DNA of 64,000 nucleotides from the NCBI GenBank assembly GCA_964451305.1, contig CAYVHV010000007.1, positions 20,616-84,615 of the forward strand. The letters are read 5' to 3'. Made by a program: the position numbers and the translations under genes. This stretch comes from an uncultured Acidimicrobiales bacterium. Its GTDB lineage: Bacteria; Actinomycetota; Acidimicrobiia; Acidimicrobiales; SHLQ01. This document shows positions 16,015-57,731 of the stretch, in pieces (position 1 is the first letter of the stretch; the number at the start of each line of letters is the position of its first letter). The notes beneath the pieces were generated by a model, which saw nothing but the letters and a program-made list of their open reading frames with translations, was not told the origin of the DNA and searched no databases.

Positions 16015-17406
16015 ATGAACGTTCGAATCGAAAGTGACACGATCGGTGACATAGAAGTGCCCGACGAGCGCTACTGGGGAGCACAAACCCAACGCAGTCT
16101 CCAGAACTTCGATATCGGCGGCCAGACCATGCCTATCGAACTCATCCGAGCATTCGCACATCTGAAGAAGGCCGCAGCGCAGGTCAACACCGACCTCACC
16201 GACTTCGACAAAGAGAAAGCCGATGCCATCGCCAAGGTCTGCGATGAGATCTTGGAAGGCACGCACGACGACGAATTTCCGCTCGTGGTGTGGCAGACCG
16301 GTTCGGGCACGCAGAGCAACATGAATGTCAACGAGGTCGTTGCGAACCGCGCTACCGAACTGCTCGGCGGCGACTTCAGGACCGAGAAACTCGTCAAGGC
16401 GAACGACGACGTCAACAAGAGCCAGAGCTCAAACGACACCTTCCCGACGGCGATGCACATCGCCACCTACGAAGCTGTCGTCAACGAGATGTTGCCCAAC
16501 GTTCAGATCCTTCACGACACCCTTGCTGCGAAGTCCGCAGCCTTCTCGAAGATCATCAAGACCGGCCGAACCCATTTGATGGATGCAACGCCCATCACCC
16601 TCGGTCAAGAGTTCAGCGGCTACGCGATGCAGCTGCAGCGCGGCATGGAAGCCGTGAACGACAGCCTCGTTCGTCTTCGTGAGCTCGCGCTCGGCGGGAC
16701 AGCGGTCGGCACCGGCTTGAATACCCCAGATGGCTATGACGAAGCGGTCGCCGCGCGAATTGCCGAGCTGACCGGCCACCCCTTCGTTACCGCCGAGAAC
16801 AAGTTCGAAGCCTTGAGTGCCCACGATGCAATGGTCGAGATGAGCGGCTCGCTCAAGCGACTTGCGGTCAGCCTCATGCACATTGCCAACAATGTCCGCA
16901 TGCTCGCGAGCGGGCCGAGGACATCGATCGGCGAAATCACTATTCCGGCGAACGAACCAGGCAGTTCGATCATGCCCGGAAAGGTCAACCCAACGCAGTG
17001 TGAAGCGCTCAGCATGGTCTGCGTTCAAGTGATCGGCAACGACGCCGCGGTGGCCGTTGCCGGCAGTCAAGGCCACTACCAGTTGAATGTGTTTAAGCCT
17101 GTCATTGCCTACAACGTGCTCCACAGCACTCGCCTGATCGGCGACGCATGTAGGAGCTTCAACGACCACCTTGCGATCGGTATCGAACCCAACCAGGAAC
17201 GGATCGACGAATTGTTGGGCAAGAGCCTCATGCTCGTGACCGCACTCAACGGCACGATTGGGTACTACAAAGCTGCCGAGATCGCACAAGCCGCGCACGC
17301 CAACGGCACGACGCTTCGCGAAGAGGCGCTCGCCCTCGGGTACCTCACCGCCGAGCAGTTCGACGAGATCGTCGTTCCAGCAAAGATGGTCGGCAAGCTC
17401 GACTGA
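16015..17406 (+). CDS. fumC: class II fumarate hydratase
   Basis: Signature [16 protein letters not shown] and full-length similarity ([22 protein letters not shown]). Confidence 0.95.
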
Positions 17407-17446
17407 GACCCAAGCGATGATCAGCAGCGACGTTCGTTCGATCCGG

Positions 17447-18187
17447 CTAGGTCAGGACGTGCTGGGTCGACGAGCCGATCTCGGTACAGGACGCGACGAC
17501 CTCGCCGTCGTCGAGCGCAAGAGCGGAATGGGTGATGGGATCTTCCCCGCCTACCACGCGGCGTTCCGATGCACGGAAAAGCCATTGTGTATCGAGATCG
17601 CGCACCATCGGTGACACCGTCAGTTCAGCAACCCGTGTGTGCGGAAGCGGTGTGGACATATCCACCGGTAGCCCATGGAGTGCCGCATCCACCTGGTCGA
17701 GAACCTGGGGCCCGGCCCATGCATCGAGTGCAGTGAGGGCGCTCCAACTCTTCGCGTCGGGGCGGAGCGAGTGAACCCACGCGTCAGCGCGTCCCTTTTC
17801 GGCGTTGAACAATGGGATGGGGCGAACGCTGTATTGCTGGGCTGCGCCAGGGCTGTTTCCTGCAAAGTCTGGAATGTCGTCGGGCCGGACTGCTGGAATG
17901 GGGCACGAGTTCCGTGGCGGGACTGGCGAAGTCGATGCGGTCAAGGTTGCGTGTCCAGCTTCGCCGTCGAGAGTCGCAGAGATACCTTCGGGCGTGGTCT
18001 CGCACGTGAGTGCATATCGTCCGGCCTTCATCGGCCGTGGAGTCTCGATCCGGAGCTGAAGCGAGTCGGGCGATGCGATGGGTAGCCGGAGGGCTTTGCA
18101 AATCGTTGCGGTGAGAAAGCTCAGTGTTCCGGTCGGAACGGTGCCACCGATGAGCCAGTACTGAGAGATATCGATGAAACCGTCCAC
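17447..18187 (-). CDS. hypothetical protein, possibly a double hot-dog acyl-CoA thioesterase-like protein
   Basis: 246-aa ORF with good coding bias. The assignment rests only on a weak resemblance to the TesB-like 4HBT_3 family. Confidence 0.35.
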   Translation of the reverse strand: MDGFIDISQYWLIGGTVPTGTLSFLTATICKALRLPIASPDSLQLRIETPRPMKAGRYALTCETTPEGISATLDGEAGHATLTASTSPVPPRNSCPIPAVRPDDIPDFAGNSPGAAQQYSVRPIPLFNAEKGRADAWVHSLRPDAKSWSALTALDAWAGPQVLDQVDAALHGLPVDMSTPLPHTRVAELTVSPMVRDLDTQWLFRASERRVVGGEDPITHSALALDDGEVVASCTEIGSSTQHVLT

Positions 18188-18290
18188 AAGTGCGACTATA
18201 CGAGGTAAACATAGACCTACCGGACGTGTCTCCTATCACAGAGCACCTTTCGGCAACGCGAGAACGTACGTAGTGGTCCTTGTGGGGTTG

Positions 18291-19640
18291 CTACAGGTCG
18301 TTGAGGAAGATTCGCAATGGGCCCCGCAGATTCCCAATGACGAGATCGTTGTAGCCGCTTCCGGTCAGGTCGACGGCGAGCGGCTTGTAGCCGAAGTGGT
18401 AGTTCTCGACTCCGCTGGCGTGCTCGGCACGTACGAATACCCCGTCGACTCCTTGCAACAAGAACTTGCCGGCGGTTGGGAATTTCTCATGGAGATGCAT
18501 GGGGTACGCCAAGTAGTTCTCGGTGATGACCATGTCCACACGCCCGTTGTTGGTGAAGTCAGCAAAGATCGATCCCCACGCAAAGGCTTGGGTGACGGTG
18601 CCGGTTTCTTTGGTCGCGTCGGTGAACTGGTAGTTGCCTTCGTTGCGGAAAAGGCGCGATGCCAGGTCGCTCTTTTGGTCCTTGCGCAGGTCGCCACGGG
18701 CCAAGTGTTCGGGAACGGACTTTCCCGAGTTCGCGAGGAAGAAATCGGGGAGGCCGCTCCCGTTGGTGTCGCCCACGGCGAGTCCCATCCAGAATCCGTA
18801 CTCGCCTGGAAGGTGTTTCTCGGTGAACGTGCCGTCGCCGTTGTTGCCCCACATTCGTGGACGATCGGTGTTGAGCGCAACAACAACGTCGGGGTAGCCA
18901 TCTCCGGTGAAGTCGGTGAGCGTGGCGTCAAAGCAATTCTGTCGTAGAGACAAACCAGCGGCCTCGGTCGACTCGACGAACGTGCCATCGCCCTGGTTGA
19001 TGTAGAAGGCGTTGTCGACACTGACCTCGGGGTCGTTATACACGATCGGTGTCATCAACTTTGGCTTGATGAAGGTGCTGACATAGAGGTCGAGGTGTCC
19101 CGACTTCCGAGTATCGGCGAGGTTCATGCTCAGAGCGAGCGAACGTTCGGGGTCGGGGAGCTCGATATCGAGTCTCGTTTCCGTGTAGCTGTGAGACTCG
19201 GGGGAGCGGGAGTACAAGTAGATCCCGCTCTCCATACCGATGAGAATCTCGTCCTCGCCATCGTTATCGATATCGCCGATCGCAATGCCGTAGGCGGCCT
19301 GATCGAGCGGGCCTTCTAGGCCGTACTCGCCCGCGATATCTTTCGCCTTGCCATCCTCGATCGTGATCAGCGCGTTGTGTTGACCGAGCCCGCCTGTGAC
19401 GAGGACGGCGTTCGTTCCGTTCCGGGAGACATCGAGGGCTTTGACATCGAGCGCAGGGAAACTGTCGTGAACGTCTTCGAGAAGGTGCTCGAAATCATTG
19501 GCGAGCTCGGTGAAGGTCGGTACGACGTTGCCCTCCTGAGCGGCGAACTCTTTAATGATCTTCTCACGTCGATGCTTGCCCGGAGTTGGGATCGACGCAG
19601 CGAACGGTGCACCGCTGTCTTTGGGGTCTTCGCTGCTCAT
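18291..19640 (-). CDS. FG-GAP/VCBS repeat protein (CRTAC1/ASPIC-UnbV-like)
   Basis: Repeated calcium-binding-type motifs GDIDNDGEDEILIG, TDFTGDGYPDVVVA, VGDTNGSGLPDFFLAN, FADFTNNGRVDMVI and VDLTGSGYNDLVIGN. I see no recognisable signal peptide. Confidence 0.8.
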   Translation of the reverse strand: MSSEDPKDSGAPFAASIPTPGKHRREKIIKEFAAQEGNVVPTFTELANDFEHLLEDVHDSFPALDVKALDVSRNGTNAVLVTGGLGQHNALITIEDGKAKDIAGEYGLEGPLDQAAYGIAIGDIDNDGEDEILIGMESGIYLYSRSPESHSYTETRLDIELPDPERSLALSMNLADTRKSGHLDLYVSTFIKPKLMTPIVYNDPEVSVDNAFYINQGDGTFVESTEAAGLSLRQNCFDATLTDFTGDGYPDVVVALNTDRPRMWGNNGDGTFTEKHLPGEYGFWMGLAVGDTNGSGLPDFFLANSGKSVPEHLARGDLRKDQKSDLASRLFRNEGNYQFTDATKETGTVTQAFAWGSIFADFTNNGRVDMVITENYLAYPMHLHEKFPTAGKFLLQGVDGVFVRAEHASGVENYHFGYKPLAVDLTGSGYNDLVIGNLRGPLRIFLNDL

Positions 19641-19756
19641 CGCATACTCCTCGGTTGTGTTCCGCGGTCATCGTGGCCGAGGTCGTTCATAAAGACCCGC
19701 ACCGGGCCGTTCAAATTCCCTATGACGAGATCGTTGACCCAACAGTGCTCTGCAAA
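19640..19756 (-). pseudogene. relic 3' end of a paralogous FG-GAP gene
   Basis: The minus-strand frame reads (stop)FAEHCWVNDLVIGNLNGPVRVFMNDLGHDDRGTQPRSMR(stop). VNDLVIGNLNGPVRVFMNDL mirrors the C-terminus YNDLVIGNLRGPLRIFLNDL of the intact gene. Its TGA overlaps the ATG of the intact gene (ATGA). Confidence 0.45.
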
Positions 19757-19949
19757 CTAGTGGACGCATCTTTGGCCACGCCAGCGTGATGTGAGAGCGC
19801 CCGCAATTCGTAACACTCACGCAGCGATGCACTGGCTACAGTCAGTGGGGTCGATGGGCGCCATGGGAGCCGTACTCTCATCAGGCTCACGGCGGGCAGT
19901 ATCGGACGACCACGATGCGTTCGAGGTTGGGTAGCGAAAGGTCAGCGCG

Positions 19950-21137
19950 TTGTCAGAACATGAAATTCTTGTCGGACTCGGCATCGTCATTGTCTTTGGC
20001 GTCGCCGCACAAGTCGTCGCTAACCTTCTAAAACTACCCGCAGTCCTATTGCTGCTCGTTGCGGGCTTCGTCGCCGGCCCAGCCACCGGGCTGCTCGACC
20101 CAGACGAGCTCTTTGGCGACCTGCTCTTTCCCGGTGTGGCTCTCGCTGTTGGCATGCTGCTCTTCGACGGCGGTTTACAACTCCGTTTCCGTGAGATCCA
20201 GATGTTTGATGGAGTGGTCTTTCGCCTCGTCACTGTGGGAGTGGTCATCACGTGGCTCGTCGGTGCGGTCACGGTCGGACTCGTGACCGATCTCGACCTG
20301 CGAACGTCACTGCTCGCCGGAGCCATCCTGATCGTGTCGGGCCCGACGGTGGTCATCCCAATCCTCCGCAGAATCATGCCGGACCCGCCCTCGGGGCAGA
20401 TACTCGAGTGGGAGGGCATTCTCATCGACCCGATCGGTGCGACCATCGGCGTTGTGATGCTCGGCGTCGTCCTCGACGGCAACTCTGCGGGAGCCGCAGC
20501 GCTCACGATTTTGATCACGTTGGCTGCAGGGGTCGGCGTTGGGTTCGTCGCCGTCCTATTCGCCACAGCGATCCTGCACAAAGGAGGGCTTCCCGAGCTC
20601 TTGCGGGCCCCAATCGCCGTGGCATTCGCCATCGCTGCGTTCGTCCTGGCGAACCTGATCTCGCCAGAATCTGGCTTGTTCGCGACGACAGTTTTCGGAC
20701 TCGGACTCGCCAACCAAAGCCTGACCCCAGTTGACGACATCTCGGCGTTCGAAGAAGGGGTCGGGGTCTTGGCTGTCGGCGGCCTATTCGTCGTGCTCGG
20801 GGCGCGAATGCCGCTTCAGCCGGTGATCGACAACCTCGTACCTGGAATCCTGCTGCTCGTTGCGCTCATCGTCGTCGCTCGCCCGCTCGCGGTCATCGCA
20901 TCGGTGGCAAACGCAGACATTTCGAGGAAAGACTCACTATTTATGATGGCGCTGGCGCCACGCGGCATCGTCGCTGCCGCTTCGGCGTCGGTTTTTGCCC
21001 TCGAGCTCGAAGACCACGGCATAGAAGGCGGAGACACGCTGATTTCTCTCACCTTCATCGTCATCATCGGCGCAGGGTTGTTCTACGGACTCGGCGCCGG
21101 CCCGATAGGCAAACGTCTCGGCGTCGTCTCAAGCTAG
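19950..21137 (+). CDS. cation:proton antiporter (Na+/H+ exchanger family)
   Basis: Polytopic membrane protein of 395 aa. The N-terminus GIVIVFGVAAQVVANLLKLPAVLLLLVAGFVAGP...LLFDGGLQL is typical of the CPA1 family. It has a TTG start. Confidence 0.8.
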   Translation: MSEHEILVGLGIVIVFGVAAQVVANLLKLPAVLLLLVAGFVAGPATGLLDPDELFGDLLFPGVALAVGMLLFDGGLQLRFREIQMFDGVVFRLVTVGVVITWLVGAVTVGLVTDLDLRTSLLAGAILIVSGPTVVIPILRRIMPDPPSGQILEWEGILIDPIGATIGVVMLGVVLDGNSAGAAALTILITLAAGVGVGFVAVLFATAILHKGGLPELLRAPIAVAFAIAAFVLANLISPESGLFATTVFGLGLANQSLTPVDDISAFEEGVGVLAVGGLFVVLGARMPLQPVIDNLVPGILLLVALIVVARPLAVIASVANADISRKDSLFMMALAPRGIVAAASASVFALELEDHGIEGGDTLISLTFIVIIGAGLFYGLGAGPIGKRLGVVSS

Positions 21138-22004
21138 GAGCGTTTCGACCGCCGGCACGACGTACCAGCCGCTCCCCGTGCAGGTCGAAAAATCCGTGAC
21201 GTGATCGGTGACGCCATCCTCGAGACCAATCATGTTCTCGAGCATCTGCAACGTCCGATCGTGATCCGGGGCGAAGCCGACGAACATCAAGCCGTGTTCT
21301 TCCAAGTTCCCGAAGGGGGTCGAGCGCCGAAACATCTCCAACTCCTCGCCGTCGTCGTCTTCGATGACGACTCGCGAGATGTGGGATCGGTCGACCAGCT
21401 GGGGAGGTTCGAGTTCTTCGGACTCCACCAAGGTCCGGCCGATCACCGCTTCGAGCTCGTGCGAGCTGAGGTGTTCGAGTGTGCTCAAGTCATGAACCCA
21501 ACGTTGTACGAGAACGACCGGCGCCAGCATCGAATCGTCCGAGGAGAAGAGGTCGATCGCTTCGTGAATTGGTGGGTTCTCTGTGCCGTCTTCGAAGCCG
21601 CTCATGTCGCGGCTGTCGAGGTACGTGAACGCAGGTTGTTCGCTCGCGAGAGACGCATGGGGCGCAAGTTCAGAGACGAGCGCGCGGCTCGCATCGAAGA
21701 GCCCATCGATGCTCGACCCGTGCATCCATACCCACAGGTCGTACTGCTCAGCGGGCAGGGACACGCCATTTGCGTTCATCGCCTCGAAATCGCCTAGACC
21801 GGAAGACACGATCTCCGGGTCGAGCCGACGCGCAAGGTCGGGACGCAACCCAACGACGACGTTCACGCCCCGCACGCTCGTCACAGACCCAAACATCGAC
21901 GTGAGCGCCTCGCGAATGCCACCCTCGTCGGTCACGGTGAAGTACAGGTGTTGATGCGAGCGAGACCCGAGAGCGAAAATCCCTGGTTGCTGTGTCATGT
22001 CCAA
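21129..22004 (-). CDS. Dyp-type (dye-decolorizing) heme peroxidase
   Basis: QPGIFALGSRSHQHLYF at the N-terminus and MFRRSTPFG...LMFVGFAPD at the C-terminus are typical of the DyP/YfeX family. Confidence 0.8.
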   Translation of the reverse strand: MDMTQQPGIFALGSRSHQHLYFTVTDEGGIREALTSMFGSVTSVRGVNVVVGLRPDLARRLDPEIVSSGLGDFEAMNANGVSLPAEQYDLWVWMHGSSIDGLFDASRALVSELAPHASLASEQPAFTYLDSRDMSGFEDGTENPPIHEAIDLFSSDDSMLAPVVLVQRWVHDLSTLEHLSSHELEAVIGRTLVESEELEPPQLVDRSHISRVVIEDDDGEELEMFRRSTPFGNLEEHGLMFVGFAPDHDRTLQMLENMIGLEDGVTDHVTDFSTCTGSGWYVVPAVETLLA

Positions 22005-22042
22005 GCGTCTCCAGTTCTCACCTCAGACCAGGTGGTATCGGG

Positions 22043-22798
22043 CTAGCGGTATTCGGGGTTCGGGAAGTCGAGCGAGCAGCCAGCGTCCCAGTCGCCAGGC
22101 CGATTGCCATAGGCAGGGAATCCGCCCGCGTCCTTGAGCATCCGGGCGGTATGGAGCAAGTTCCATGTCATGAACGTCGTGTTGCGGTTCGTGAAGTCGT
22201 TCTCGGGGCCGCCAGATCCCTCGTCGAGGTATGAGGGTCCAGGGCCTACCTCGCCGAGCCATGCCGCATCGGACTGTGGCGGAATCATGAAACCGAGGTG
22301 CTGCATTGACCACAACAGGTTCATCGAGGCGTGCTTCGCCCCATCTTCATTACCGGTGATCAACGAACCCGCGGTGAGCCCGTAATACGGCAACTGGCCC
22401 TTGTCGTTGACCACACCGTGCTGGGAATAGAGACGCTCAACGAACTGGGTTGCCACCGACGACTTCTCGCCAAGCCAAATCGACGCTCCGACGACCAAGA
22501 TGTCGGCGGCGATGATCTTGCTGTATAGCTGAGGCCAATCATCGACCTCCCAACCGTGTTCGGTCATATCGGGCATAACACCGACGGCGATCTGGTAATC
22601 GATGGGCCGAATAATCTCCGTCGCGACACCATTGGCTTCCATAATCGCTTGCGACATCTTGATGAGGCCCTCCGTGTGCGAGAGCTCCGGCGAACGTTTC
22701 AACGTGCAGTTCACAAAGACGGCGCTCAGGTCGGAGTAGTCGACGGGGCTGTCTTCACACAGCTGCTTCTGGTGTTCGTTCAATGTCATCGTTTGCAA
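22043..22798 (-). CDS. flavodoxin-like NAD(P)H-dependent FMN oxidoreductase
   Basis: FVNCTLKRSPELSHTEGL, ADILVVGASIWLGEKSS and ITGNEDGAKH are motifs of the flavodoxin_2/FMN reductase fold. Confidence 0.7.
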   Translation of the reverse strand: MQTMTLNEHQKQLCEDSPVDYSDLSAVFVNCTLKRSPELSHTEGLIKMSQAIMEANGVATEIIRPIDYQIAVGVMPDMTEHGWEVDDWPQLYSKIIAADILVVGASIWLGEKSSVATQFVERLYSQHGVVNDKGQLPYYGLTAGSLITGNEDGAKHASMNLLWSMQHLGFMIPPQSDAAWLGEVGPGPSYLDEGSGGPENDFTNRNTTFMTWNLLHTARMLKDAGGFPAYGNRPGDWDAGCSLDFPNPEYR

Positions 22799-22848
22799 AT
22801 TTCCTTCATTGCGTTCGTCGCCCTGAAATGGGCGTGAGTCTTAGCGCG

Positions 22849-24117
22849 CTAGCTAAACGGCTTTTTGTTCAGCCGCCACCGAATTGGGCTCTCCGCCATG
22901 TCGCCAAGTTCGGCCATTTCTGGGCGCCCGTGCTTAGAAAACCATACCGAGTACGCCTTGGCACCCGGCGCGGCCGTGATGCCGTGCAGCACGACCGAGC
23001 AGAAGATGGTGATCGTGATAATCGTGAACAACGGGCTTTCGCCCGAGCCTTCCTCGGACACGATCAGCAACCCGAACAGCAGCGAGGCGAGGCCCCTCGG
23101 GCCGAACCAGCCGAAGAAGACCACCGTCCAGCTTTTTACTCCGGTTCCGATCAAGGAAAGAGCGACAGGCAACATACGCCCGACCGTGAGCGTCAGAATC
23201 ACAAAGATGATGATCGGCAGGGTGAGCTCGCCCAGGGCGGGCCAGACCAACTTGGCGCCGAAGACAATAAAGGTGACCTCGGCGCCGACCTGGCCGATGT
23301 TTTCGGCGAGCTCTACGTGGTCGGCCGTCGAACGTCCAATGAGGGCTCGAACCGTCAGGCCACACACAAACGCTGCGATAAAGCCGTTACCTCCAAGAGC
23401 GGTCGACGCGGTGAACGCAACGATGGCGGCGGAGAAGGCCACGAGTTGTGCTCCACCTTCGTCGGTCCACTTCTTTGCGTGCACCCAGGGGTTCACACGG
23501 CTCAAGAGGGCGCCGAGCACCCCGCCGACGGCGATACCGATACCGATCTCTGCGGCTGCTTCACCGAGGATTGCACCTCGGCTTTCCAGAACGCCACCTG
23601 CGGCAAGTGCTGCAAACACCGCTACGACCGGAACGACGAGCCCGTCGTTGAGTCCTGACTCGACGTTGAGGGTTTGTCGGACGCGCACCGGCACGCTTTT
23701 GTTCGCCACCACCGCCTGCCCGAGTGCGGCATCGGTTGGGGCGAGTACCGCTGCTACCAACGCCGCCTCGGCCCAGCTCAATTCGTCGAGTAACAACAGC
23801 GCAAAGACGGTTCCGAGGCCGATCGTCAGCGGGAGTCCGATAGAGAGAAGGCGAGCTGGCATGCTGAACGACGACCGCAGGGTTGCGCTATCGATCCGGG
23901 CAGCGTCAGAAAACAAGAGCAAGCCGAGCGTGAGTTCAGCGATGAGAACGACGCCTTCTTCCTCGAGGCCAACGTCGAAAAGGTTCAGCACGTCGGGGCT
24001 GAGCAGCATCCCGGCGCCGACGAAGATCATCGGCGCGGTGAAGGGCAGTTTCGTGATTCGAATTCGGACCACCGAGACGAGGGCGAGAACCGCTGCGAGG
24101 ATTGCGATGCTAGTCAC
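22849..24117 (-). CDS. cation:proton antiporter (Na+/H+ exchanger family)
   Basis: Polytopic 422-aa protein. TAPMIFVGAGMLLSP...LGLLLFSDAARID and ESGLNDGLVVP are typical of the family. Confidence 0.85.
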   Translation of the reverse strand: MTSIAILAAVLALVSVVRIRITKLPFTAPMIFVGAGMLLSPDVLNLFDVGLEEEGVVLIAELTLGLLLFSDAARIDSATLRSSFSMPARLLSIGLPLTIGLGTVFALLLLDELSWAEAALVAAVLAPTDAALGQAVVANKSVPVRVRQTLNVESGLNDGLVVPVVAVFAALAAGGVLESRGAILGEAAAEIGIGIAVGGVLGALLSRVNPWVHAKKWTDEGGAQLVAFSAAIVAFTASTALGGNGFIAAFVCGLTVRALIGRSTADHVELAENIGQVGAEVTFIVFGAKLVWPALGELTLPIIIFVILTLTVGRMLPVALSLIGTGVKSWTVVFFGWFGPRGLASLLFGLLIVSEEGSGESPLFTIITITIFCSVVLHGITAAPGAKAYSVWFSKHGRPEMAELGDMAESPIRWRLNKKPFS

Positions 24118-25195
24118 CGGGCATTACTACCATGTCATCGTCTGAACCCCAATAGGAGGGGAGGTCGCCGACGAGCGCCCGTAGGCCGACGATCGAACGG
24201 TCATAATTCATGCGCCAGCCAATGAAGGTCTCCCATGCAGCATCTCGCCCGTCGGGAACCGGTACCCCGGCCGACGCAATGGCGTCGACCAACATGTCGA
24301 AGTCGTCGCGGGTTATCGAGAGCGAGTCAACGCCGGTGCCAAGCCGGCTCATTTCTGGTTCGACCCGGTAAAAATCGGCAATACTGCGCAACGCAAGAGC
24401 ACCGGACCGAAGCATTAACTCAGCAGAGCCCGGCCGAGCTTCGAAGCCTAGACAGTTGACGAGCGCCGCGGTGTCGAGCGCAGTCTCTGCAGCGGTCAAC
24501 CACGATCGGTCGGGGCTTGCCGAACGGAAGTAGATGAGGGCGGGGAAGCTCGTATGGGTTTCTCCTAACTCGACGAACCAGCCCTCCCATTCGGCCCAAC
24601 CTTCTTCGATGGGATGAGCCCGGCCAATCGCATTGAGCCGGGTGAGCAAGGTGACCGGGTTTGGCGGCTCACCCGCTCGGGTCGTGAGCTTGCCAACCGC
24701 TATTTCGCGTCGGGAGAACGTTCCGTAGAGGGTCGGTAGAAAGCTGATCATCAGCGCAACGATGCCGAGGCCGAGCAGTGCTTCGATAACGGCGAGCGCT
24801 TGGGCCGCACCATTGGGCGGTGGAATGAAGCCGAGCGTCGTGATCGACGACCCGGAAAACCCGAAGCTCTCGGACCACGACCCGACGCCGACAGCCCAGT
24901 ACATGCATGCGAACGAGGCGATCAGCCCAGCCGACCAGATCAGCGGCAAGCTCAGAAGGACAGAGGGGGCGAACGCTCCAAGAATTTTGTGGCGCATCCA
25001 CGAGGGCACCTTTGCACCCAACCAATGGGCAATTCGGCGGCTGACGTTGAAGAGCGTGACGGTGAGCCAGACGCGTTCGGGTCGGGGAATGACGACGGAC
25101 CGGACGATCGAGACCAAGACCCAGACCGTGCCTATAACGCCGGCTGCGAAGACCAGCGAACGTATGAACATCTCTTTCCCCACACTTGTGGCCAA
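24110..25195 (-). CDS. membrane protein with a two-TM ion-channel-like pore region and a soluble C-terminal domain
   Basis: Pore-helix/filter-like segment SGSSITTLGFIPPPNG lies between two hydrophobic helices. The gene overlaps the downstream antiporter gene by 8 nt. Confidence 0.5.
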   Translation of the reverse strand: MATSVGKEMFIRSLVFAAGVIGTVWVLVSIVRSVVIPRPERVWLTVTLFNVSRRIAHWLGAKVPSWMRHKILGAFAPSVLLSLPLIWSAGLIASFACMYWAVGVGSWSESFGFSGSSITTLGFIPPPNGAAQALAVIEALLGLGIVALMISFLPTLYGTFSRREIAVGKLTTRAGEPPNPVTLLTRLNAIGRAHPIEEGWAEWEGWFVELGETHTSFPALIYFRSASPDRSWLTAAETALDTAALVNCLGFEARPGSAELMLRSGALALRSIADFYRVEPEMSRLGTGVDSLSITRDDFDMLVDAIASAGVPVPDGRDAAWETFIGWRMNYDRSIVGLRALVGDLPSYWGSDDDMVVMPGD

Positions 25196-25368
25196 CCTGC
25201 GCCGATGACGCTAGCAGCGTCGTTGCGAGGCAGCGTCATCGCCATGAAGTGTTCACGAGTTCAGCGACAAGGGTCTTTGCTATGGTCTGTGAACGTGCCC
25301 TCTTGGGCATGTTTCAGTTTCAAATTGCGAGCATCGGCTCGAACCAGGAACGAAGGAATTATCGCACT

Positions 25369-26082
25369 ATGGCAACGCAGTACCCCATCTTTTCCACCGA
25401 CGACCTCGGGTGGTTGACCGCTCCGCAGATGCTCGAAGTCGACCGGATCATGATGGAAGATCTTCAGATCGAACTGATCCAGATGATGGAGAACGCTGGG
25501 CGGAACCTCGCGCAGCTGATCCTCGATCGTTACCAGCCAGCATCGGTGACCGTGCTCGCAGGCTCAGGCGGCAACGGCGGGGGTGGGTTGGTGGCGGCAC
25601 GAAACCTGGCGAACCGCGGCGTCGACGTGAGTGTCACGTTGGGTCAGCCCGCCGAGAACTTGGGGCCGGTACCTGCGCACCAGCTCGACATTTTGAACCG
25701 AATGAGTGTTCCGATCGAAGACGAGCCGCGCACTTCCGACGTCGTCATCGACGCACTCATTGGATACAGCCTGAAGGGGGAGCCTCGGGGACGAATTGCC
25801 GAACTTATTGAGGCAACGGCGTCGATGGACTCGCCGATCGTGTCGCTCGACAACCCATCGGGGCTCAACGTCACCGACGGAACGGTGCCCGGCGTCGTCG
25901 TCCAGGCTGACGCGACGATGACGCTCGCTCTGCCAAAGATCGGCCTTCGCGACTCGAGCGAAGTCGGCGCGCTATTCCTCGCCGACATTTCGGTACCACC
26001 GTTCGTCTACGACTCCGTTGGGGTTACCCCGGCACCGGATTTCACGACGAGCACGCTTATCGAAGTAACGATGGGGGACTAG
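25369..26082 (+). CDS. NAD(P)H-hydrate epimerase (YjeF N-terminal domain protein)
   Basis: VTVLAGSGGNGGGGLVAARNLANRG...DALIGYSL. I chose the ATG at 25369 over the ORF-track start at 25186. Confidence 0.75.
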   Translation: MATQYPIFSTDDLGWLTAPQMLEVDRIMMEDLQIELIQMMENAGRNLAQLILDRYQPASVTVLAGSGGNGGGGLVAARNLANRGVDVSVTLGQPAENLGPVPAHQLDILNRMSVPIEDEPRTSDVVIDALIGYSLKGEPRGRIAELIEATASMDSPIVSLDNPSGLNVTDGTVPGVVVQADATMTLALPKIGLRDSSEVGALFLADISVPPFVYDSVGVTPAPDFTTSTLIEVTMGD

Positions 26083-26085
26083 CAA

Positions 26086-26877
26086 ATGATCCACGACGTC
26101 GTCCTCAGTCCATTCGGAGCCACGATGCCTGAGCTCCTCGACGCGGCCCGCTGCGCTGAAGACAGTGGCTTCGGCGGTATTTGGACCTATGACCACCTCA
26201 CCGGGGTGATGCTCGACCGTGGGGCGTCGCTCGACGCGTTCGTGTTCCTCGGAGCGGTCGCTGCGGTTACGAGCAGCGTTCGGGTCGGGCCGTTGGTCGC
26301 GAACATGATGAACCGCCACCCAGCTCGGCTGGCGTTGGCGATGTCTTCGCTGCAATCGCTCAGTTCTGGGCGCGCCGTGTTGGGGCTCGGTAGCGGCTCA
26401 GCACCCGGGTCTCGTTTCGCTGGCGAACAAGAGACCGTCGGAATTCACTTGCTCGACGGCGAAGGTCGCTCCCGTCGTCTCGAAGAGACGATTCGGCTCG
26501 TCCGCGCAACGTGGGCCGGAGCAAACGAGTTCCATGGCGAGTTCTTCGATGTGTTCGACCCGGGCCTCGGGCTGGTCGAGCCGGACCCTCCTCCTATCAT
26601 CGTCGGAGCGAGCGGACCGCGTACCATCGAAATGGCGATGGTCCACGCCGATGGGGTCAACATCACCGCAGGCAAGAAGCTCGCCGGTCTCATCGAACTG
26701 GTTCAGGGGCGCGAAGCCACCACGCCATTCGAGACATCGGTGCACATCCCCGTCGACCTCGAACACGAGATGGGCGGCTCGCTGCCAGATGGACAGCTCG
26801 CTCGACGGGTACTCGCTTGGAATGCCCCGTTCGATCTCGACGCGATGACGAAGATCGGAAACGCGCTACATCGATAG
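26086..26877 (+). CDS. LLM-class (luciferase-like) flavin/F420-dependent oxidoreductase
   Basis: GFGGIWTYDHL...RVGPLVANMMNRHPARLALAMSSLQSLSSGRAVLGLGSG. Confidence 0.75.
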   Translation: MIHDVVLSPFGATMPELLDAARCAEDSGFGGIWTYDHLTGVMLDRGASLDAFVFLGAVAAVTSSVRVGPLVANMMNRHPARLALAMSSLQSLSSGRAVLGLGSGSAPGSRFAGEQETVGIHLLDGEGRSRRLEETIRLVRATWAGANEFHGEFFDVFDPGLGLVEPDPPPIIVGASGPRTIEMAMVHADGVNITAGKKLAGLIELVQGREATTPFETSVHIPVDLEHEMGGSLPDGQLARRVLAWNAPFDLDAMTKIGNALHR

Positions 26878-26935
26878 ACTCGAATCGCATAACGTACGAG
26901 AAATCCGCAAAACGCTGGAAATTTTGGGGGGAACC

Positions 26936-27931
26936 ATGACCGACGGGCAACTTTTTGCGCCGACCGCGCAACATCTGGCGATGCCAGAGGAGACACGAGT
27001 AGTCCTTGCACACCAATGGGAACAACTCGCTCAGGCCGGTACCTGGTGGAGCGGAGAACAACGAGTAGATATCGCCAGCGTTGGACGAGCGGCGAGCCGA
27101 GGTCTTCCAGAACCTGATGCATCGTCCATTAGCGACGTCGCTCGCCGAGCAGCCACGGCGGTCGCTACCGCTGCCGGCAGCATCACCAAGGAAACTGTCG
27201 AGGGCTATGTCGCCGACGGTTTGAGCCCGCTTCACTACGTCGAGCTCGTGAGCATCATCGCTCGCACGACAGCGATCGATACGGCGACCGTCGGCCTCGG
27301 GAACGGACTCGAACCATACCTTCCGCCAGTCCCAGGAGCGCCGAGCAACGCAGAGGTGCCGGGCGCCAAACGACGGTCAGCGTGGGTGCCGATGGTTGGA
27401 GCCGCGGGAGCAACGTCGGCTCTGTCGGCGGTCACCGCCGAAGACCGGGCACAAGAACAACTCCATGGAGCGCTGTACCTGAGTTACTTCGAGATGGGGA
27501 ATTTCGGCATCGAGAAGGGGCTCAACCGACCCCAGATGGAGCTCCTGGCAGCCAGAACATCTCTGGTAAACGATTGCTATTTTTGACTGTTTGCACACTC
27601 CGGCATGCTCCGTGCGAGCGCCCATATGTCTCACCAAGACATCAACCTGAAAGCCGTCGGCGATAGCACGCTCGACCCGAACCTACCGGCAGGTCCACAG
27701 CTGCTGGCCTTTGCTGACGCACTCCTCGGAAGCGACGACGATGCGCTCGACAGTGCTCGCTCGGCGCTCACCGATGTCGCTGGCTCGGACTCGACGGCGC
27801 GGGCCGCCCTCGTCGTCGGCAACTTTGAAATGATGAATCGACTGCTCGACGCAACCGGGGTGCCGGTGCCGATCAGCATGGGATCGATTACCTCCGAGCT
27901 CGGACTCCCAGCCTTCACCGGGCGTCACTGA
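26936..27931 (+). CDS. AhpD/carboxymuconolactone-decarboxylase (CMD)-family protein, predicted selenoprotein (CYFU instead of CxxC); TGA at 27584-27586 read as Sec
   Basis: Track ORFs 26924..27586 and 27605..27931 share one frame. Read-through gives ...ELLAARTSLVNDCYF-U-LFAHSGMLRAS..., which matches the AhpD-core motif N-x-C-x-[YF]-C-x-x-x-H with the second Cys replaced by UGA. The ATG at 26936 is preceded by GGGGGGA. Confidence 0.65.
27602..27622 (+). promoter_or_regulatory. candidate SECIS hairpin for the 27584 UGA
   Basis: GGC-(AU bulge)-GCTC-CGTGC-GAGC-GCC gives 7 bp in total with a 2-nt bulge and the apical loop CGUGC. The stem starts 18 nt after the U of UGA. Confidence 0.45.
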
Positions 27932-27977
27932 CCCTGCACAAACGAATGCTCTTGAATTGCAATGAAAGGAACGGCAT

Positions 27978-28541
27978 ATGTCCCAAGAACCAACAGTAAA
28001 CATCCTCGCGCTCGCGGGAAGCTACCGATCGGGCTCGTTTAACCAAGCGCTGCTTCGTGCAGCGCGAGAAGTCGCACCCGATGGCGTCGAAATTTCCGAC
28101 TTCGACCTCCGGACGGTGCCGCACTTTGATGAAGACTTGGAGTCGAGCGGCCCGCCGCAGCCGGTCGTCGACCTCAAGGCTGCTGTCGTGGCTGCTGACG
28201 CGTTGCTCTTCGTGTCGCCCGAATACAACCACGGCATACCGGGCGTGCTTAAGAACGGACTCGACTGGTCATCGCGCATCTACCCAGATGCGCCACTCGG
28301 AGGCAAGCTCGCAGCGGTTATCGGCGCAACACCAGGACGCAGTGGAACCTCGTTCGCCCAAGCAAACCTGCGTGAGTCCCTGGGTGTGGCAGGCGCTGAG
28401 CTCGTCGAAGGGGAGCTGATGCTCGCGCGCGCCGGCGATGCGATCGAAGACGGTGTTGTCACCTCTGAAGACGTCAAGGCCCAGCTGCGTGCAGTGCTCG
28501 ATGCGATCGTTGCTGCCGTTGCTACCCAGGGGGCCGAATGA
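27978..28541 (+). CDS. NADPH-dependent FMN reductase
   Basis: ILALAGSYRSGSFNQALL and FVSPEYNHGIPGVLKNGLDW. Confidence 0.85.
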   Translation: MSQEPTVNILALAGSYRSGSFNQALLRAAREVAPDGVEISDFDLRTVPHFDEDLESSGPPQPVVDLKAAVVAADALLFVSPEYNHGIPGVLKNGLDWSSRIYPDAPLGGKLAAVIGATPGRSGTSFAQANLRESLGVAGAELVEGELMLARAGDAIEDGVVTSEDVKAQLRAVLDAIVAAVATQGAE

Positions 28542-28638
28542 GGCGTCCTCACATGCAGAATCGCAGTCGCGCTCGCACCGCGACGCCCATCGGCGCGAAG
28601 TTGCTTGCGACTAGCTCCCAGCTGCAATACTCGCCGTT

Positions 28639-29280
28639 GTGACACACGATCGACTCCATGTTCTAAACACCATTGCTCAGGAACAGATCATGCATTTGTT
28701 CCATCACCCCGATCCGACGGTCGCGACCCAGATCATCGACGCGATCGCAGCCGGTGGTGGAGTGGTGGTCGAGTTCCCCAATCGGGTCAAGTTCGCTCCC
28801 GCGGCATTCGAGGCTTTGAGGCGACACGTCGACGCGAACCACCCAGAGATGGTGCTCGGTGTCGGCTCGGTAGAAGACGCCGCGACCGCTGCACTGTTCA
28901 TATCGCTCGGAGCCGAATTCATCGTCTCGCCAATCTTTCTCGCAGAGACCGCCGAGCTGTGCAACCGGCACAAGGTTCCGTACCTGCCGGGCGCGATGAC
29001 CATCACCGAAATTGCTGAGGCCGAGCGTTATGGAGTCGAGTTCGTGAAGCTCTACCCAGCGATGAACCCGATGTTCATCCAGGCGGTACAGATGCCACGC
29101 CCGTGGAGCCGGCTCATCGCCAACGGTCCGATCGGTCCCGACGACGTTCGGACATGGCTCGATGCGGGTGCAACCGCGATCGGCACGATGGCATCGGTTC
29201 CGCCCGGAGCTGTCGAGTCAGGAAATTTCGACGAGATAACGGCTGCGGTTTCAGCACTGTCCGCAGCGAGAGGAAAGTAA
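28639..29280 (+). CDS. eda: KDPG/KHG-type class I aldolase
   Basis: VVVEFPNR, GVGSVEDA, FIVSP, PYLPGAMTITEI and VKLYPA match the Eda family along the full length. Confidence 0.75.
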   Translation: MTHDRLHVLNTIAQEQIMHLFHHPDPTVATQIIDAIAAGGGVVVEFPNRVKFAPAAFEALRRHVDANHPEMVLGVGSVEDAATAALFISLGAEFIVSPIFLAETAELCNRHKVPYLPGAMTITEIAEAERYGVEFVKLYPAMNPMFIQAVQMPRPWSRLIANGPIGPDDVRTWLDAGATAIGTMASVPPGAVESGNFDEITAAVSALSAARGK

Positions 29281-36770: not shown

Positions 36771-37408
36771 TGATATCGGACGCGCTCGAACTCGTCGACT
36801 ATCGACGCCGAGTTGCCACGCTGTATAGCGATATCCAACGCAGCGGCGTCGGGCCCGACAGCTGGCTGGTATGGCGCCGCGCCCGTACCGAGCTGCTGCT
36901 GACACACCCGCAGAGCCCGATCGTCAATCGCAACGAGTTCTCAGAGGAATCGCTCTCATACTTCGAGTACGACCCATCATGGAACGTCATCGGTACGGTC
37001 GAACCGCTCGCTGATGACGAAGAGCCAGCAAAGGTTGCTGGCGGACCGTCGACGTTCACACAGATTGGCTCGGTGCTCTTCGAGCGCAACGGTGAGAGCC
37101 ATTCACTTGCGCTCTTTTGGCTCGATGCCTACGGCGGTGGCTTGCTCGTCCCGTTTCGCGACAAGACCAATGGCACCTCGACCTACGGAGCGGGTCGGTA
37201 CATCCTCGACGGGGCGAAGTCGGCCGATCTCGGTGCGGCTGGCCAAAATGAACTCGTCCTCGACTTCAACTTCTCGTATCACCCGTCATGCATGTGGGAC
37301 CCACAGTGGCCGTGTCCACTCGCCCCGCCAACAAGCCATCTTGCCGTTGAAGTCGCTGCGGGCGAGAAAATGCCCGAGCAACTCATGGCACCGGTGGAGT
37401 CCTCGTAG
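36770..37408 (+). CDS. DUF1684 domain protein
   Basis: [33 protein letters not shown]...[21 protein letters not shown]. Confidence 0.8.
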
Positions 37409-39396
37409 TGGTCAACCGCTTGGCCACCGAGTCGAGCCCGTATCTTCAACAACACGCGGAGAACCCGGTCAACTGGTACCCGTGGGGACAAGGGGCGCTC
37501 GACCTCGCGGCTGAACAGGACAAGCCAATCTTGTTATCGGTTGGATACTCGGCGTGCCACTGGTGTCACGTAATGGCTCACGAATCCTTCGAGGACGAGC
37601 GAACCGCAGCGATCATGAACAGATCGTTCGTCAACGTCAAAGTCGATCGAGAAGAACGCCCCGATATCGATGCGTTGTACATGGAAGCCGTACAAGCGTT
37701 GTCTGGCCAGGGCGGATGGCCAATGACGGTGGTCATGACCCCGTCGGGAGAGCCCTTCTTCGCTGGTACCTACTTTCCACCGACGCCACGACACGGCCTT
37801 CCAGCCTTTGGCGACATGCTGGACGCCATTTCGTATGCATGGGAACACGAAAAGGAAGGGCTGGTCGAGCGAGCAACCCAGGTCACCAGCGCGCTGCGAG
37901 AGTGGGCACAGGTCACCCCGGGTCATGAGGCGCTCGATCGGGACCTGGTGTCTACCGCCGTCGAGGAGTTGCTCCGCAGCTTCGACCCGGTGAACGGCGG
38001 CTTCGGCTCCGCACCGAAGTTTCCATCGGCGGTCATCATCGATGTGTTGTTCCGCCATCACATCGCTACTGGCGACACGGCGTCGCTCGACGCTGCGGTA
38101 TCGACGCTCGACCACATGGCCGCTGGCGGGATCTTCGACCACCTCGGCGGTGGTTTTGCGCGGTACTCCACCGACGACAGGTGGTTGGTCCCGCACTTCG
38201 AGAAGATGCTCTATGACAACGCACAGTTGATCACGGCCTATGTGCACGGCTGGCAGCTGACCGGCTCGCGCTCGCATCTCCGCGTCGTCGACGAGACGGT
38301 CACCTACGTTCTCCGTGACCTGCGGCTCGATGGGGGAGGTTTTGCCTCGGCCGAAGACGCCGACACCGAAGGCGAAGAAGGCCGCTTCTATGTTTGGACC
38401 GAAGACGAACTCGCTGACGTTCTCACTCCGGATGAACTGGACGCTGCCAGGGGTTGGTATGGCGTCACCGATGGCGGAAATTTCGGGAATCGCTCGAATG
38501 TGTTGTTCCGACCTGACGTTGCCGTGTGGGAGCGCCCGAAGGCTATAGAGGCAATTCGCGAGAAGCTGTTCAACGCTCGGCTGGGGCGCGAACGGCCCGG
38601 AGTAGACGACAAAGTTCTGACCGAATGGAACGCGTTGATGATTGCAGCGCTCGCCGAGGCGGGAGCGGCCGCAGGGCGAACGGATTGGGTCGACGCTGCG
38701 GTCGAGGCGATGGAGTTTCTTGAAGCCCACCTGCTCGACGATGATCGGTGGTATCGAAGCTGGCAGCAGGCCAGCGGGCGTAAACACCGCTCCTACTCGG
38801 CGGACTATGCAGCGCTCATCGACGCATACACGCGCCTCGGCGAAGCGACCGGTCAGAAACGCTGGCACCTCGCTGCGTTGCGGACGTCAGAACAGATGCT
38901 GGACCTGTTTTGGGACACCGATCACAGCGGATTGTTCACCACTGGTCGAGACGGCGAGGAGCTGCTCGTCCAACGCAAGGAATTCTTCGATAGCCCGGTG
39001 CCCTCGTCGAACGCGAACGCTGCGGTCGTGCTTCAACGTGTCGGCATTATTCATGGGCGAGATGACATCGCCGGACGGGGGCGCGAACTCATGACGCTTC
39101 TGACGAGCGCTTCGTGGGAAAATCCGGCTGCCCACGCTCGGATGCTGGCGGCTGTCGACCTCGCGTTCGGCCCGACGAGCGAGATCGTCGTCGCGGGCGA
39201 TTCGCCGGACCTTCTCGCCACCGTTCGCCAGACGTATCTGCCGAACTCGGTGATCCTTCATGGCGAACGCTTTGAAAGCCCGCTGTGGAACGGTCGAGAG
39301 GACGGTCGGGCATATGTGTGCAAGAACTACACATGCACGCTACCGGCGGCCGATGTCGACGAACTCGGCGTGCAGCTCGCACGCCTCGCAGGGTAA
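37408..39396 (+). CDS. thioredoxin-domain protein (DUF255/YyaL family, thioredoxin fold plus six-hairpin glycosidase-like domain)
   Basis: [18 protein letters not shown]...[22 protein letters not shown]...[14 protein letters not shown] start at 37408. Confidence 0.88.
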
Positions 39397-39434
39397 GTTC
39401 ATGCCCGCAATGTCTCTTCGAGGAGTTCAGCACA

Positions 39435-46248: not shown

Positions 46249-46254
46249 TTGCTG

Positions 46255-47271: not shown

Positions 47272-47279
47272 GCTCGCGG

Positions 47280-50536: not shown

Positions 50537-50540
50537 TGTT

Positions 50541-56177: not shown

Positions 56178-56239
56178 GGGTATTGTCCTCTCGGTTCAGG
56201 TACGTAGTAGGTGTGTTGGAAAGGTGGGTCGGGGACGGG

Positions 56240-57694: not shown

Positions 57695-57731
57695 TAGAAG
57701 TCCTCGCTTGGTAGGGGGATGGACTTCAGCT

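What the first reader, a model, noticed from the sequence alone, without database searches (positions are those of the whole stretch)
26936..27931. AhpD/CMD-family protein with a C-x-x-U active site split into two ORFs by UGA
ORFs 26924..27586 and 27605..27931 share one frame and are separated by TGA 27584-27586 plus six sense codons. Joined, the active-site region reads SLVNDCYF-U-LFAHSGMLRA. This is the AhpD-core motif N-x-C-x-x-C-x-x-x-H with the resolving or peroxidatic second Cys replaced by UGA. A bulged hairpin with the same CGUGC apical loop as the 45011 hairpin begins 18 nt after the UGA (27602-27622). The 108-aa downstream ORF alone would be a fragment of a CMD domain.
Basis: partly seen in the sequence, partly recalled or inferred. 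Interest (0 to 1): 0.8.

Follow-up and report, generated by a model that had tools for sequence, protein, structure and literature searches.

The report
Known AhpD-related selenoprotein gene, split by gene callers
The two adjacent ORFs are one gene for a redox protein whose in-frame UGA very probably encodes selenocysteine; the protein belongs to a selenoprotein family first reported in 2005 and now curated by NCBI, so the finding is correct but ordinary.

Summary
ORFs 26936..27586 and 27605..27931 share one frame and are interrupted by a single TGA at 27584-27586. Joined, they read E202-x11-C214-Y-F-U217-L-F-A-H221.

The joined 331-residue protein scores 227.8 bits (cut-off 175) against NCBIfam NF041238, 'alkylhydroperoxidase-related (seleno)protein'. 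A 2026 review equates this family with 'hypothetical protein 1' (CxxU) of the 2005 Sargasso Sea selenoproteome.

- **The TGA is real.** It is present in dozens of independent assemblies of this strain.
- **The TGA is conserved.** All 16 related loci that could be read (29-78% identity) have it at the same column. About 90% of the top 150 family representatives stop there. The few full-length relatives mostly have Cys at that position.
- **A SECIS-like hairpin follows.** GCUC-(5-nt loop, G at position 2)-GAGC sits at a fixed distance after the UGA. Its Leu, Arg and Ser codons are the only frozen codons among 74 conserved degenerate columns.
- **UGA is not reassigned.** TGA is a normal stop elsewhere in this genome.

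Selenocysteine machinery is not in the window and could not be checked. The biochemical function of the family is unknown. Verdict: interpretation supported, already known, low interest.

The parts
26936..27931 (+). Complete coding sequence of the AhpD-related selenoprotein: 331 residues including Sec217, with the true stop at TGA 27929-27931
   Evidence: Single frame. NF041238 scores 227.8 bits against a cut-off of 175, over residues 22-321. tblastn matches in 14 genomes span the UGA.
26926..26933 (+). Purine-rich run GGGGGGAA, 3-10 nt upstream of ATG 26936; a likely ribosome-binding site (inference)
   Evidence: Read from the sequence. Gene callers in public assemblies also start at this ATG, giving a 216-aa product.
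27539..27541 (+). Codon for Glu202, the E of the E-x11-C-x-x-U-x3-H motif (AhpD-type proton relay position)
   Evidence: Present in all 38 N-terminal fragments and at least 90% conserved in the full-length alignment.
27575..27577 (+). Codon for Cys214, the first residue of the C-x-x-U redox motif
   Evidence: Invariant in 38 homologues. Aligns with the first Cys of CxxC in PDB AhpD-like chains.
27584..27586 (+). In-frame UGA, the inferred selenocysteine codon (residue 217)
   Evidence: TGA at this column in 16 of 16 loci. Cys at this column in full-length homologues P0053, P0060, P0113, P0161, P0185 and P0156. TGA present in at least 24 independent contigs.
27596..27598 (+). Codon for His221 (U+4), the conserved His of the AhpD-type motif
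   Evidence: At least 90% conserved in alignment A3.
27602..27622 (+). SECIS-like hairpin. Lower stem GGC/GCC with an AU bulge; invariant upper stem GCUC (27607-27610) paired with GAGC (27616-27619); apical loop CGUGC (27611-27615) with G at loop position 2
   Evidence: Local MFE fold. ATGCTC, loop G and GAGC are invariant in 15 loci. The same register holds in distant L022 and L023; L023 has an 8-bp stem and a GGUCU loop. Codons +8 (CTC, 16 of 16), +9 (CGT, 12 of 13) and +11 (AGC, 16 of 16) are the only frozen codons among 74 conserved degenerate columns.

Best explanation
Positions 26936-27931 are one gene for a 331-residue, two-part, all-helical protein of the NCBIfam family NF041238. This family is called 'alkylhydroperoxidase-related (seleno)protein' and corresponds to 'hypothetical protein 1' of the Sargasso Sea selenoproteome.

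**Recoding (inferred).** The UGA at 27584-27586 is not a stop. It is decoded as selenocysteine by SelB carrying Sec-tRNA(Sec). SelB would be recruited by the small hairpin whose apical loop begins 24 nt after the UGA. The hairpin's core, GCUC-(N-G-N-N-N)-GAGC, is written inside the conserved peptide M-L-R-A-S.

**Protein (shown by homology).** The product has a family-specific N-terminal helical region of about 110 residues and a long linker. These are followed by an AhpD-like or 'peroxidase-related' domain (about residues 165-310) that carries E202-x11-C214-x-x-U217-x3-H221.

**Chemistry (by analogy).** Sec217 occupies the position of the second Cys of the AhpD CxxC. Comparison with AhpD-type CxxC proteins suggests it acts as the nucleophile and cycles with Cys214 through a selenenylsulfide. 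That would make the protein a thiol/selenol oxidoreductase, probably used in peroxide or disulfide reduction.

**What is shown:** gene continuity, family membership, the Cys/Sec column, hairpin conservation and suppression of synonymous change in the hairpin.

**What is inferred:** actual Sec insertion, SelB binding, the redox cycle and the substrate.
For: **Family membership**
- NF041238 scores 227.8 bits against a cut-off of 175 for the joined protein. The two halves alone score only 127.5 and 75.6.
[quoted passage not shown] It cites Zhang, Fomenko and Gladyshev 2005.

**Conservation of the UGA**
- All 44 homologues found in the 5.8-billion-protein search are fragments of 197-242 aa that cover only the N-terminal 36-65% of the query. 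The 38 that were aligned all end at C-x-[FY].
- In 14 Acidimicrobiia or Actinomycetota genomes, tblastn matches run across the stop, and the stop is TGA in every one. Two members at 29-33% identity (L022, L023) also have the TGA.
- The profile search of 1.84 billion representatives gave 1360 hits. Of the top 150, all but about 11 end at profile position 213.
- Of the 11 full-length hits, six have CxxC, two have CxxS, and three have other substitutions.

**Fold**
- A PDB profile search aligns residues 165-305 with AhpD-like structures 6k40, 2oyo and 2pfx (E = 8e-16 to 2e-12). U aligns with the second Cys.
- The AlphaFold model of the Cys homologue P0060 has pLDDT 97. Its best structural matches are the same AhpD-like entries.

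**Hairpin**
- The core is invariant, and synonymous sites are frozen only at codons +8, +9 and +11.

**The TGA is not an error and UGA is not reassigned**
- Four near-identical assemblies from different samples, and at least 24 contigs overall, carry the TGA.
- TGA ends 21 of 55 called genes in this genome, so UGA is not globally reassigned.

**Sec use in this organism and its relatives**
- A second gene in the window (44957-45589) has TGA in place of the first Cys of a DsbA-type C-P-W-C motif. It is followed by an 8-bp hairpin with the same CGUGC loop.
- Complete Sec machinery has been reported in another marine Acidimicrobiia order, in a preprint.
Against: - No selA, selB, selD or tRNA-Sec is in the 64-kb window or in the fetched flanks. 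The Sec trait of this genome is therefore unverified.
- No Rfam family matches. Bacterial SECIS elements are poorly represented in Rfam.
- The hairpin is short. Its folding energy is no better than that of shuffles (z about -0.3 to -0.4), and in a 67-nt context the MFE fold is a different structure.
- The four core pairs never vary, so there is no covariation support. The lower stem differs between members.
- No member of the family has been studied biochemically, so the redox mechanism rests on analogy.
- No conserved AhpC/Prx partner or operon was found.
Confidence: 0.92

Rival explanations
1. The TGA is a nonsense mutation or an assembly error, so the locus is a pseudogene.
For: Public gene callers split the locus into two unnamed ORFs of 216 and 108 aa.
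Against: - The TGA is at the same column in 16 of 16 loci at 29-78% identity.
- It is also present in at least 24 independent contigs of this strain.
- The downstream 108 codons stay open and conserved.
- The stop is always TGA, never TAA or TAG.
Confidence: 0.01
2. There are two separate polypeptides: translation stops at the UGA and restarts at ATG 27605, giving a 216-aa and a 108-aa protein that assemble non-covalently.
For: An in-frame ATG lies 18 nt after the stop, and Met at +7 is invariant.
Against: - The break would fall inside the active-site helix, between Cys214 and His221.
- Cys-type homologues are single chains of 315-402 aa.
- No ribosome-binding site precedes ATG 27605.
- The invariance of ATG is explained by its place in the hairpin and by the conserved peptide.
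- Restart does not explain an exclusive use of TGA, nor Cys at that column in homologues.
Confidence: 0.03
3. The UGA is read through or reassigned to a standard amino acid (Trp, Cys or Gly) without selenocysteine.
For: Sec machinery could not be shown for this genome.
Against: - TGA is a frequent genuine stop here (21 of 55 genes), including this gene's own terminator.
- Homologues have Cys, not Trp or Gly, at the column in most full-length forms.
- A position-fixed hairpin with a conserved loop G and frozen synonymous sites is what SelB-dependent recoding predicts.
- The family is curated as a selenoprotein.
Confidence: 0.04

Closest known systems
NCBIfam NF041238 'AhpD_rel_CFYUT', alkylhydroperoxidase-related (seleno)protein; equals 'hypothetical protein 1' of Zhang, Fomenko & Gladyshev 2005 (Genome Biol 6:R37)
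   Same: The full-length match is above the curated cut-off. The C-x-x-U motif, the Sec/Cys column and a SECIS-like hairpin with a loop G immediately downstream are all present. The marine metagenomic origin also agrees.
   Different: Nothing of substance. The local tetrapeptide is C-Y-F-U rather than the C-F-Y-U suggested by the model's name. Both variants occur among relatives.
AhpD-like 1 selenoproteins / 'peroxidase-related enzyme' (COG2128, TIGR01926), with PDB examples 6k40, 2oyo, 2pfx, 2prr and 3c1l
   Same: The C-terminal half (about residues 165-310) has the same fold, and the CxxC/CxxU and His are in the same place. These are also known as CxxU selenoproteins in marine metagenomes.
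   Different: - Those proteins are single-domain, about 180-200 aa. This one has an extra family-specific N-terminal region of about 160 residues.
- The TIGR01926 score is 32.7, far below its cut-off of 81.8.
Mycobacterium tuberculosis AhpD (PDB 1knc, 1gu9)
   Same: The active-site pattern E-x11-C-x-x-C/U-x3-H is the same. The motif region aligns at residues 188-225 against 110-147. The assignment of Glu118, Cys130, Cys133 and His137 in M. tuberculosis AhpD is from my own knowledge of the literature.
   Different: - Similarity is weak outside the motif: E = 4e-4 by sequence and TM-score (normalised to the target) of about 0.4-0.46 by structure.
- The TIGR00778 AhpD-core domain scores 21.8, below its cut-off of 27.8.
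- No ahpC neighbour was found.

Membership tests
NF041238 alkylhydroperoxidase-related (seleno)protein | Whole-protein HMM score at or above the curated cut-off (175 bits) | tested here: met
   227.8 bits, E = 2e-67. Residues 22-321 match profile positions 7-345 of 357, with U replaced by C for scoring.
NF041238 alkylhydroperoxidase-related (seleno)protein | C-x-x-U (or C-x-x-C) motif at the conserved column, in one chain running across the UGA | tested here: met
   C214-Y-F-U217. There is TGA in 16 of 16 related loci and Cys in six full-length homologues.
Bacterial selenoprotein gene (general) | SECIS-like stem-loop just downstream of the UGA, with a small apical loop that contains a G | tested here: met
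   The hairpin is at 27602-27622 and its loop CGUGC starts 24 nt after the UGA. The core and the loop G are invariant, and synonymous sites are frozen. Folding energy is not significant and there is no covariation in the core.
Bacterial selenoprotein gene (general) | The genome encodes selA, selB, selC (tRNA-Sec) and selD | not testable with these tools
   None of these is in the 64-kb window or the fetched flanks. Indirect support comes from a second UGA/hairpin gene in the window and from Sec machinery reported in another Acidimicrobiia order.
Bacterial selenoprotein gene (general) | Selenium is actually incorporated at the UGA | not testable with these tools
   This needs 75Se labelling or mass spectrometry.
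TIGR01926 peroxidase-related enzyme (COG2128, 'AhpD-like 1') | HMM score at or above the cut-off (81.8 bits) | tested here: not met
   32.7 bits over residues 193-310. The protein is related in fold but is not a member.
Pfam CMD (PF02627) / TIGR00778 AhpD core domain | Domain score at or above the gathering or curated cut-off | tested here: not met
   CMD scores 22.5 against 23. ahpD_dom scores 21.8 against 27.8. Both are marginally below threshold. Fold-level similarity is confirmed by the PDB profile search and by Foldseek.
Canonical AhpD (AhpC-reducing, M. tuberculosis type) | Genetic linkage to ahpC or a peroxiredoxin | tested here: not met
   No AhpC/Prx domain appears among the called genes of the window. 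Neighbours are conserved only in close relatives.

The most novel reading that the evidence does not exclude
The family may not be an AhpC-recycling AhpD at all. It could be a selenoenzyme with its own, still unknown substrate, specified by the family-specific N-terminal region. It would be used almost obligatorily in the Sec form (about 90% of representatives) by marine and other Acidimicrobiia. Its SECIS core would be hard-wired into the conserved peptide M-L-R-A-S, a case of dual coding that constrains both RNA and protein.
Probability: 0.25. Interest if true: 0.4.

Novelty: already known. Interest (0 to 1): 0.12.

Why it matters
The practical value is for annotation. Standard gene callers split this gene into two unnamed 'hypothetical' ORFs in every public assembly examined. 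Merging them gives a correctly named selenoprotein. Together with the DsbA-like UGA gene at 44957-45589, it flags the organism, a 61% G+C relative of uncultured Acidimicrobiales, as a selenocysteine user.

Scientifically it adds nothing new in kind. CxxU AhpD-type selenoproteins have been known from marine metagenomes since 2005, and this exact family has a curated NCBI model. The open question is the substrate and physiological role of the family, and this window does not make that more tractable, because no conserved partner gene was found.

Tried and rejected
**Searches that gave nothing**
- **Rfam, gathering threshold, whole window:** no hit.
- **ARAGORN on the window and 19 loci:** no tRNA and no tRNA-Sec.
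- **Folding energies of the hairpin:** not distinguishable from shuffles, and likewise for the 45011 hairpin. I did not use thermodynamics as evidence.
- **Covariation count on 15 sequences:** the four core pairs never vary. Only U-G/U-A variation and a partial A-U pair occur below them, so there is no covariation support. An intended second count for the bulged lower stem failed on a string-length error and was not repeated.
- **Sec machinery:** Pfam lists for all called genes across the window show no SelA, SelB or SelD. SelO at 41797-43308 is not part of the machinery.
- **Walking beyond the window ends:** this failed or gave only a 3.7-kb contig.
- **Conserved operon partners:** neighbours (LLM oxidoreductase, FMN reductase, aldolase, HAD, transketolase) are shared only with the two closest relatives. 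More distant loci share only scattered genes: YjeF_N, a 353-aa hypothetical and a Na/H exchanger.
- **Window-wide scan for further in-frame TGA candidates using GC3:** too noisy to use.

- I therefore searched with a profile of the N-terminal fragments and modelled a full-length Cys homologue, P0060, instead of the window protein.

**Rejected explanations**
- Pseudogene or sequencing error.
- Two-polypeptide restart.
- Global UGA reassignment. TGA ends 21 of 55 genes.

Full report
**1. Observation**

- An ATG at 26936 follows a run GGGGGGAA at 26926-26933. It opens a frame that runs to TGA 27584-27586, continues open for six codons to ATG 27605, and ends at TGA 27929-27931.
- Read through, the frame has 331 codons and reads ...M-E202-LLAARTSLVND-C214-Y-F-[UGA217]-L-F-A-H221-SGMLRAS...
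- The hairpin at 27602-27622 is GGC-AU-GCUC-[CGUGC]-GAGC-GCC. It is the MFE fold of the local 36-nt segment.
- Neither hairpin folds better than shuffled sequence (z about -0.3 to -0.5). In a 67-nt context the MFE fold at 27584-27650 is a different structure. Thermodynamics alone says nothing here.

**2. What the gene is**

With U replaced by C for scoring, the joined protein matches one NCBIfam equivalog model over almost its whole length. The model is NF041238.1, 'AhpD_rel_CFYUT, alkylhydroperoxidase-related (seleno)protein'. The score is 227.8 bits against a curated cut-off of 175, and the two halves alone score 127.5 and 75.6.

Generic models are only marginal:

| Model | Score (bits) | Cut-off (bits) |
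|---|---|---|
| Pfam CMD | 22.5 | 23 |
| TIGR00778 AhpD core | 21.8 | 27.8 |
| TIGR01926 | 32.7 | 81.8 |

[quoted passage not shown] It cites Zhang, Fomenko and Gladyshev 2005. That paper describes 'hypothetical protein 1' as a new selenoprotein family with a conserved CXXU motif, Cys homologues, and a SECIS-like stem-loop with a G in a small apical loop. The family is therefore already described and curated.

**3. Is the UGA real and conserved?**

- *Independent assemblies.* Four assemblies from different samples differ from the window at 8-18 of 6651 positions, and all carry TGA at codon 217. The identical 216-aa N-terminal product is on at least 24 contigs.
- *Protein searches.* A search of 5.8 billion proteins returned 44 homologues at 33-100% identity. 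Every one is a fragment of 197-242 aa covering only the N-terminal 36-65% of the query. The 38 that I aligned all end at C-x-[F/Y].
- *Genome loci.* In 14 genome loci from Acidimicrobiia or Actinomycetota MAGs (39-78% identity), tblastn matches run across the stop. The stop is TGA in all of them. Two members at 29-33% identity (L022, L023) also have it.
- *Family-wide search.* A profile of the N-terminal fragments, searched against 1.84 billion cluster representatives, found 1360 relatives (349 at E ≤ 1e-30). Of the top 150, all but about 11 end at the last profile position, which is the UGA.
- *Full-length relatives.* The 11 full-length ones are 315-402 aa:
  - C-x-x-C in P0053, P0060, P0113, P0161, P0185 and P0156.
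  - C-x-x-S in P0105 and P0180.
  - Other substitutions in P0094, P0142 and P0181.

A TGA/Cys pair at an otherwise invariant redox motif is the standard signature of a Sec codon. TGA is also an ordinary terminator in this genome. It ends 21 of 55 called genes, including this gene's own end, so UGA is not reassigned.

**4. The hairpin**

In 15 aligned loci, the bases ATGCTC, the G at loop position 2, and GAGC are invariant. The flanks vary.
- The loop is CGUGC, CGUUG, AGGUG, AGUUG or AGUUC in these loci. In the distant L023 it is GGUCU on an 8-bp stem, in the same register.
- Because the four core pairs never vary, pair counting gives no covariation.
- The stronger argument comes from codon usage. 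Among 74 alignment columns with a conserved four- or six-fold degenerate residue, the commonest codon accounts for 33-88% of sequences everywhere, with three exceptions. These are Leu +8 (CTC, 16 of 16), Arg +9 (CGT, 12 of 13) and Ser +11 (AGC, 16 of 16), which are exactly the hairpin codons.
- This shows selection on the RNA itself, at a fixed distance from the UGA: the loop starts 24 nt after it. A SelB-binding bacterial SECIS predicts that arrangement. From my own recollection, the accepted spacing range is about 16-37 nt (Zhang and Gladyshev's bacterial SECIS model).

**5. Protein anatomy**

- A profile of full-length sequences aligns residues 165-305 to solved AhpD-like or 'peroxidase-related' proteins: 6k40, 2oyo, 2pfx, 3c1l and 2prr (E = 8e-16 to 1e-9). 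CfYc aligns to CVYC, so Sec217 aligns with the second Cys. M. tuberculosis AhpD matches only around the motif.
- The pattern E202-x11-C214-x2-U217-x3-H221 equals the AhpD Glu-Cys-Cys-His arrangement. The residue roles in M. tuberculosis AhpD are from my own knowledge.
- AlphaFold2 on the Cys homologue P0060 (44% identical, 52-row alignment) gave pLDDT 97 and pTM 0.94. The model is all-helical:
  - five N-terminal helices (residues 10-110);
  - a long non-helical stretch (111-156);
  - a C-terminal helical domain.
- Foldseek against the PDB returns the same AhpD-like entries and the CMD-family debrominase Bmp8. These cover about half of the model, with TM-score normalised to the target of 0.55-0.63. 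The N-terminal half has no separate match.

**6. Context**

- The neighbours are an LLM-class (F420/FMN-type) oxidoreductase upstream and an NADPH-dependent FMN reductase downstream. Next come a KDPG-type aldolase, a HAD hydrolase and transketolase.
- This order is kept only in the two closest relatives, so no functional partner can be inferred.
- No AhpC/Prx gene is in the window, and no selA, selB, selD or tRNA-Sec either.
- Indirect support for Sec decoding in this organism comes from a second gene, 44957-45589. It is DsbA-like and reads Y-S-D-F-I-[UGA]-P-W-C-W, and its hairpin loop starts 20 nt after the UGA. DsbA-like UxxC selenoproteins are also a known family.
- A 2026 preprint reports complete Sec machinery in all 84 complete genomes of Actinomarina, another marine Acidimicrobiia lineage.

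**7. Mechanism**

*Shown:*
- one continuous gene;
- membership of NF041238;
- the Sec/Cys column;
- an RNA element under selection just after the UGA.

*Inferred:*
- SelB with Sec-tRNA(Sec) binds the hairpin and inserts Sec at codon 217.
- Sec217 and Cys214 cycle between the selenol/thiol state and a selenenylsulfide, as in CxxC AhpD-type proteins.
- The protein acts as a reductase in peroxide or disulfide metabolism.

The substrate is unknown. No family member has been characterised.

**8. Rivals**

- Pseudogene or sequencing error is excluded by conservation.
- Stop-and-restart into two polypeptides would cut the active-site helix. It does not explain the exclusive use of TGA or Cys in the single-chain homologues.
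- Read-through as a standard amino acid cannot be formally excluded without the Sec machinery, but it does not predict the conserved hairpin.

**9. Verdict**

The finding is a routine instance of a selenoprotein family that has been known since 2005 and now has a curated NCBI model. Its value is as an annotation fix, because public gene calls split it into two unnamed ORFs. Interest is low.

Noticed in passing
window 44957-45589 (+); TGA at 44996-44998; hairpin 45011-45031: A second likely selenoprotein gene. It is DsbA-family (FrnE-like) and reads MRPVKITVYSDFI-[UGA]-PWCW, which is a U-x-x-C motif. An 8-bp hairpin GUCGGGAC-[CGUGC]-GUCUCGAC follows, and its loop starts 20 nt after the UGA. Public gene calls give only a 189-aa DSBA-domain ORF that starts after the UGA. 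DsbA-like UxxC selenoproteins are a known family.
   Followed up: partly
window 41797-43308 (-): A SelO (PF02696) homologue of 503 aa lies close to the DsbA-like gene. Despite its name it is not part of the selenocysteine machinery. I did not examine whether it carries Cys or Sec at its C-terminus.
   Followed up: no
window about 17400-29000 and 37400-39400: The region is unusually rich in redox genes. It holds a DyP-type peroxidase (C-terminal domain only in the call), two FMN-reductase-like genes, an LLM-class oxidoreductase and a 662-aa Thioredox_DsbH protein. An Rv2466c-like DsbA-type protein and a 100-aa rhodanese are encoded further upstream, nearer the window start. Rhodanese and DsbA-type proteins have known Sec forms. 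These genes were not checked for in-frame UGA.
   Followed up: no
window about 46250-57700: An assimilatory nitrate/nitrite cluster. It contains a molybdopterin nitrate reductase (688 aa), NirB-like (830 aa) and NirD-like Rieske proteins, an NMT1-type ABC transporter, and sirohaem or uroporphyrinogen genes (HEM4, TP_methylase).
   Followed up: no
family-wide: In NF041238 the Sec form greatly outnumbers the Cys form. About 139 of the top 150 cluster representatives at 50% identity end at the UGA. Some full-length relatives have lost the redox pair altogether: CxxS, SxxC, SxxV and CxxG.
   Followed up: partly
L023 positions 41-1096 and L022 positions 848-1684: Distant family members (29-33% identity) keep the hairpin in the same register but with different sequence. 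L023 has an uninterrupted 8-bp stem and a GGUCU loop. In L022 the lower stem reads GCC/GGC instead of GGC/GCC, which looks like a compensatory swap. There are too few sequences to test this statistically.
   Followed up: partly
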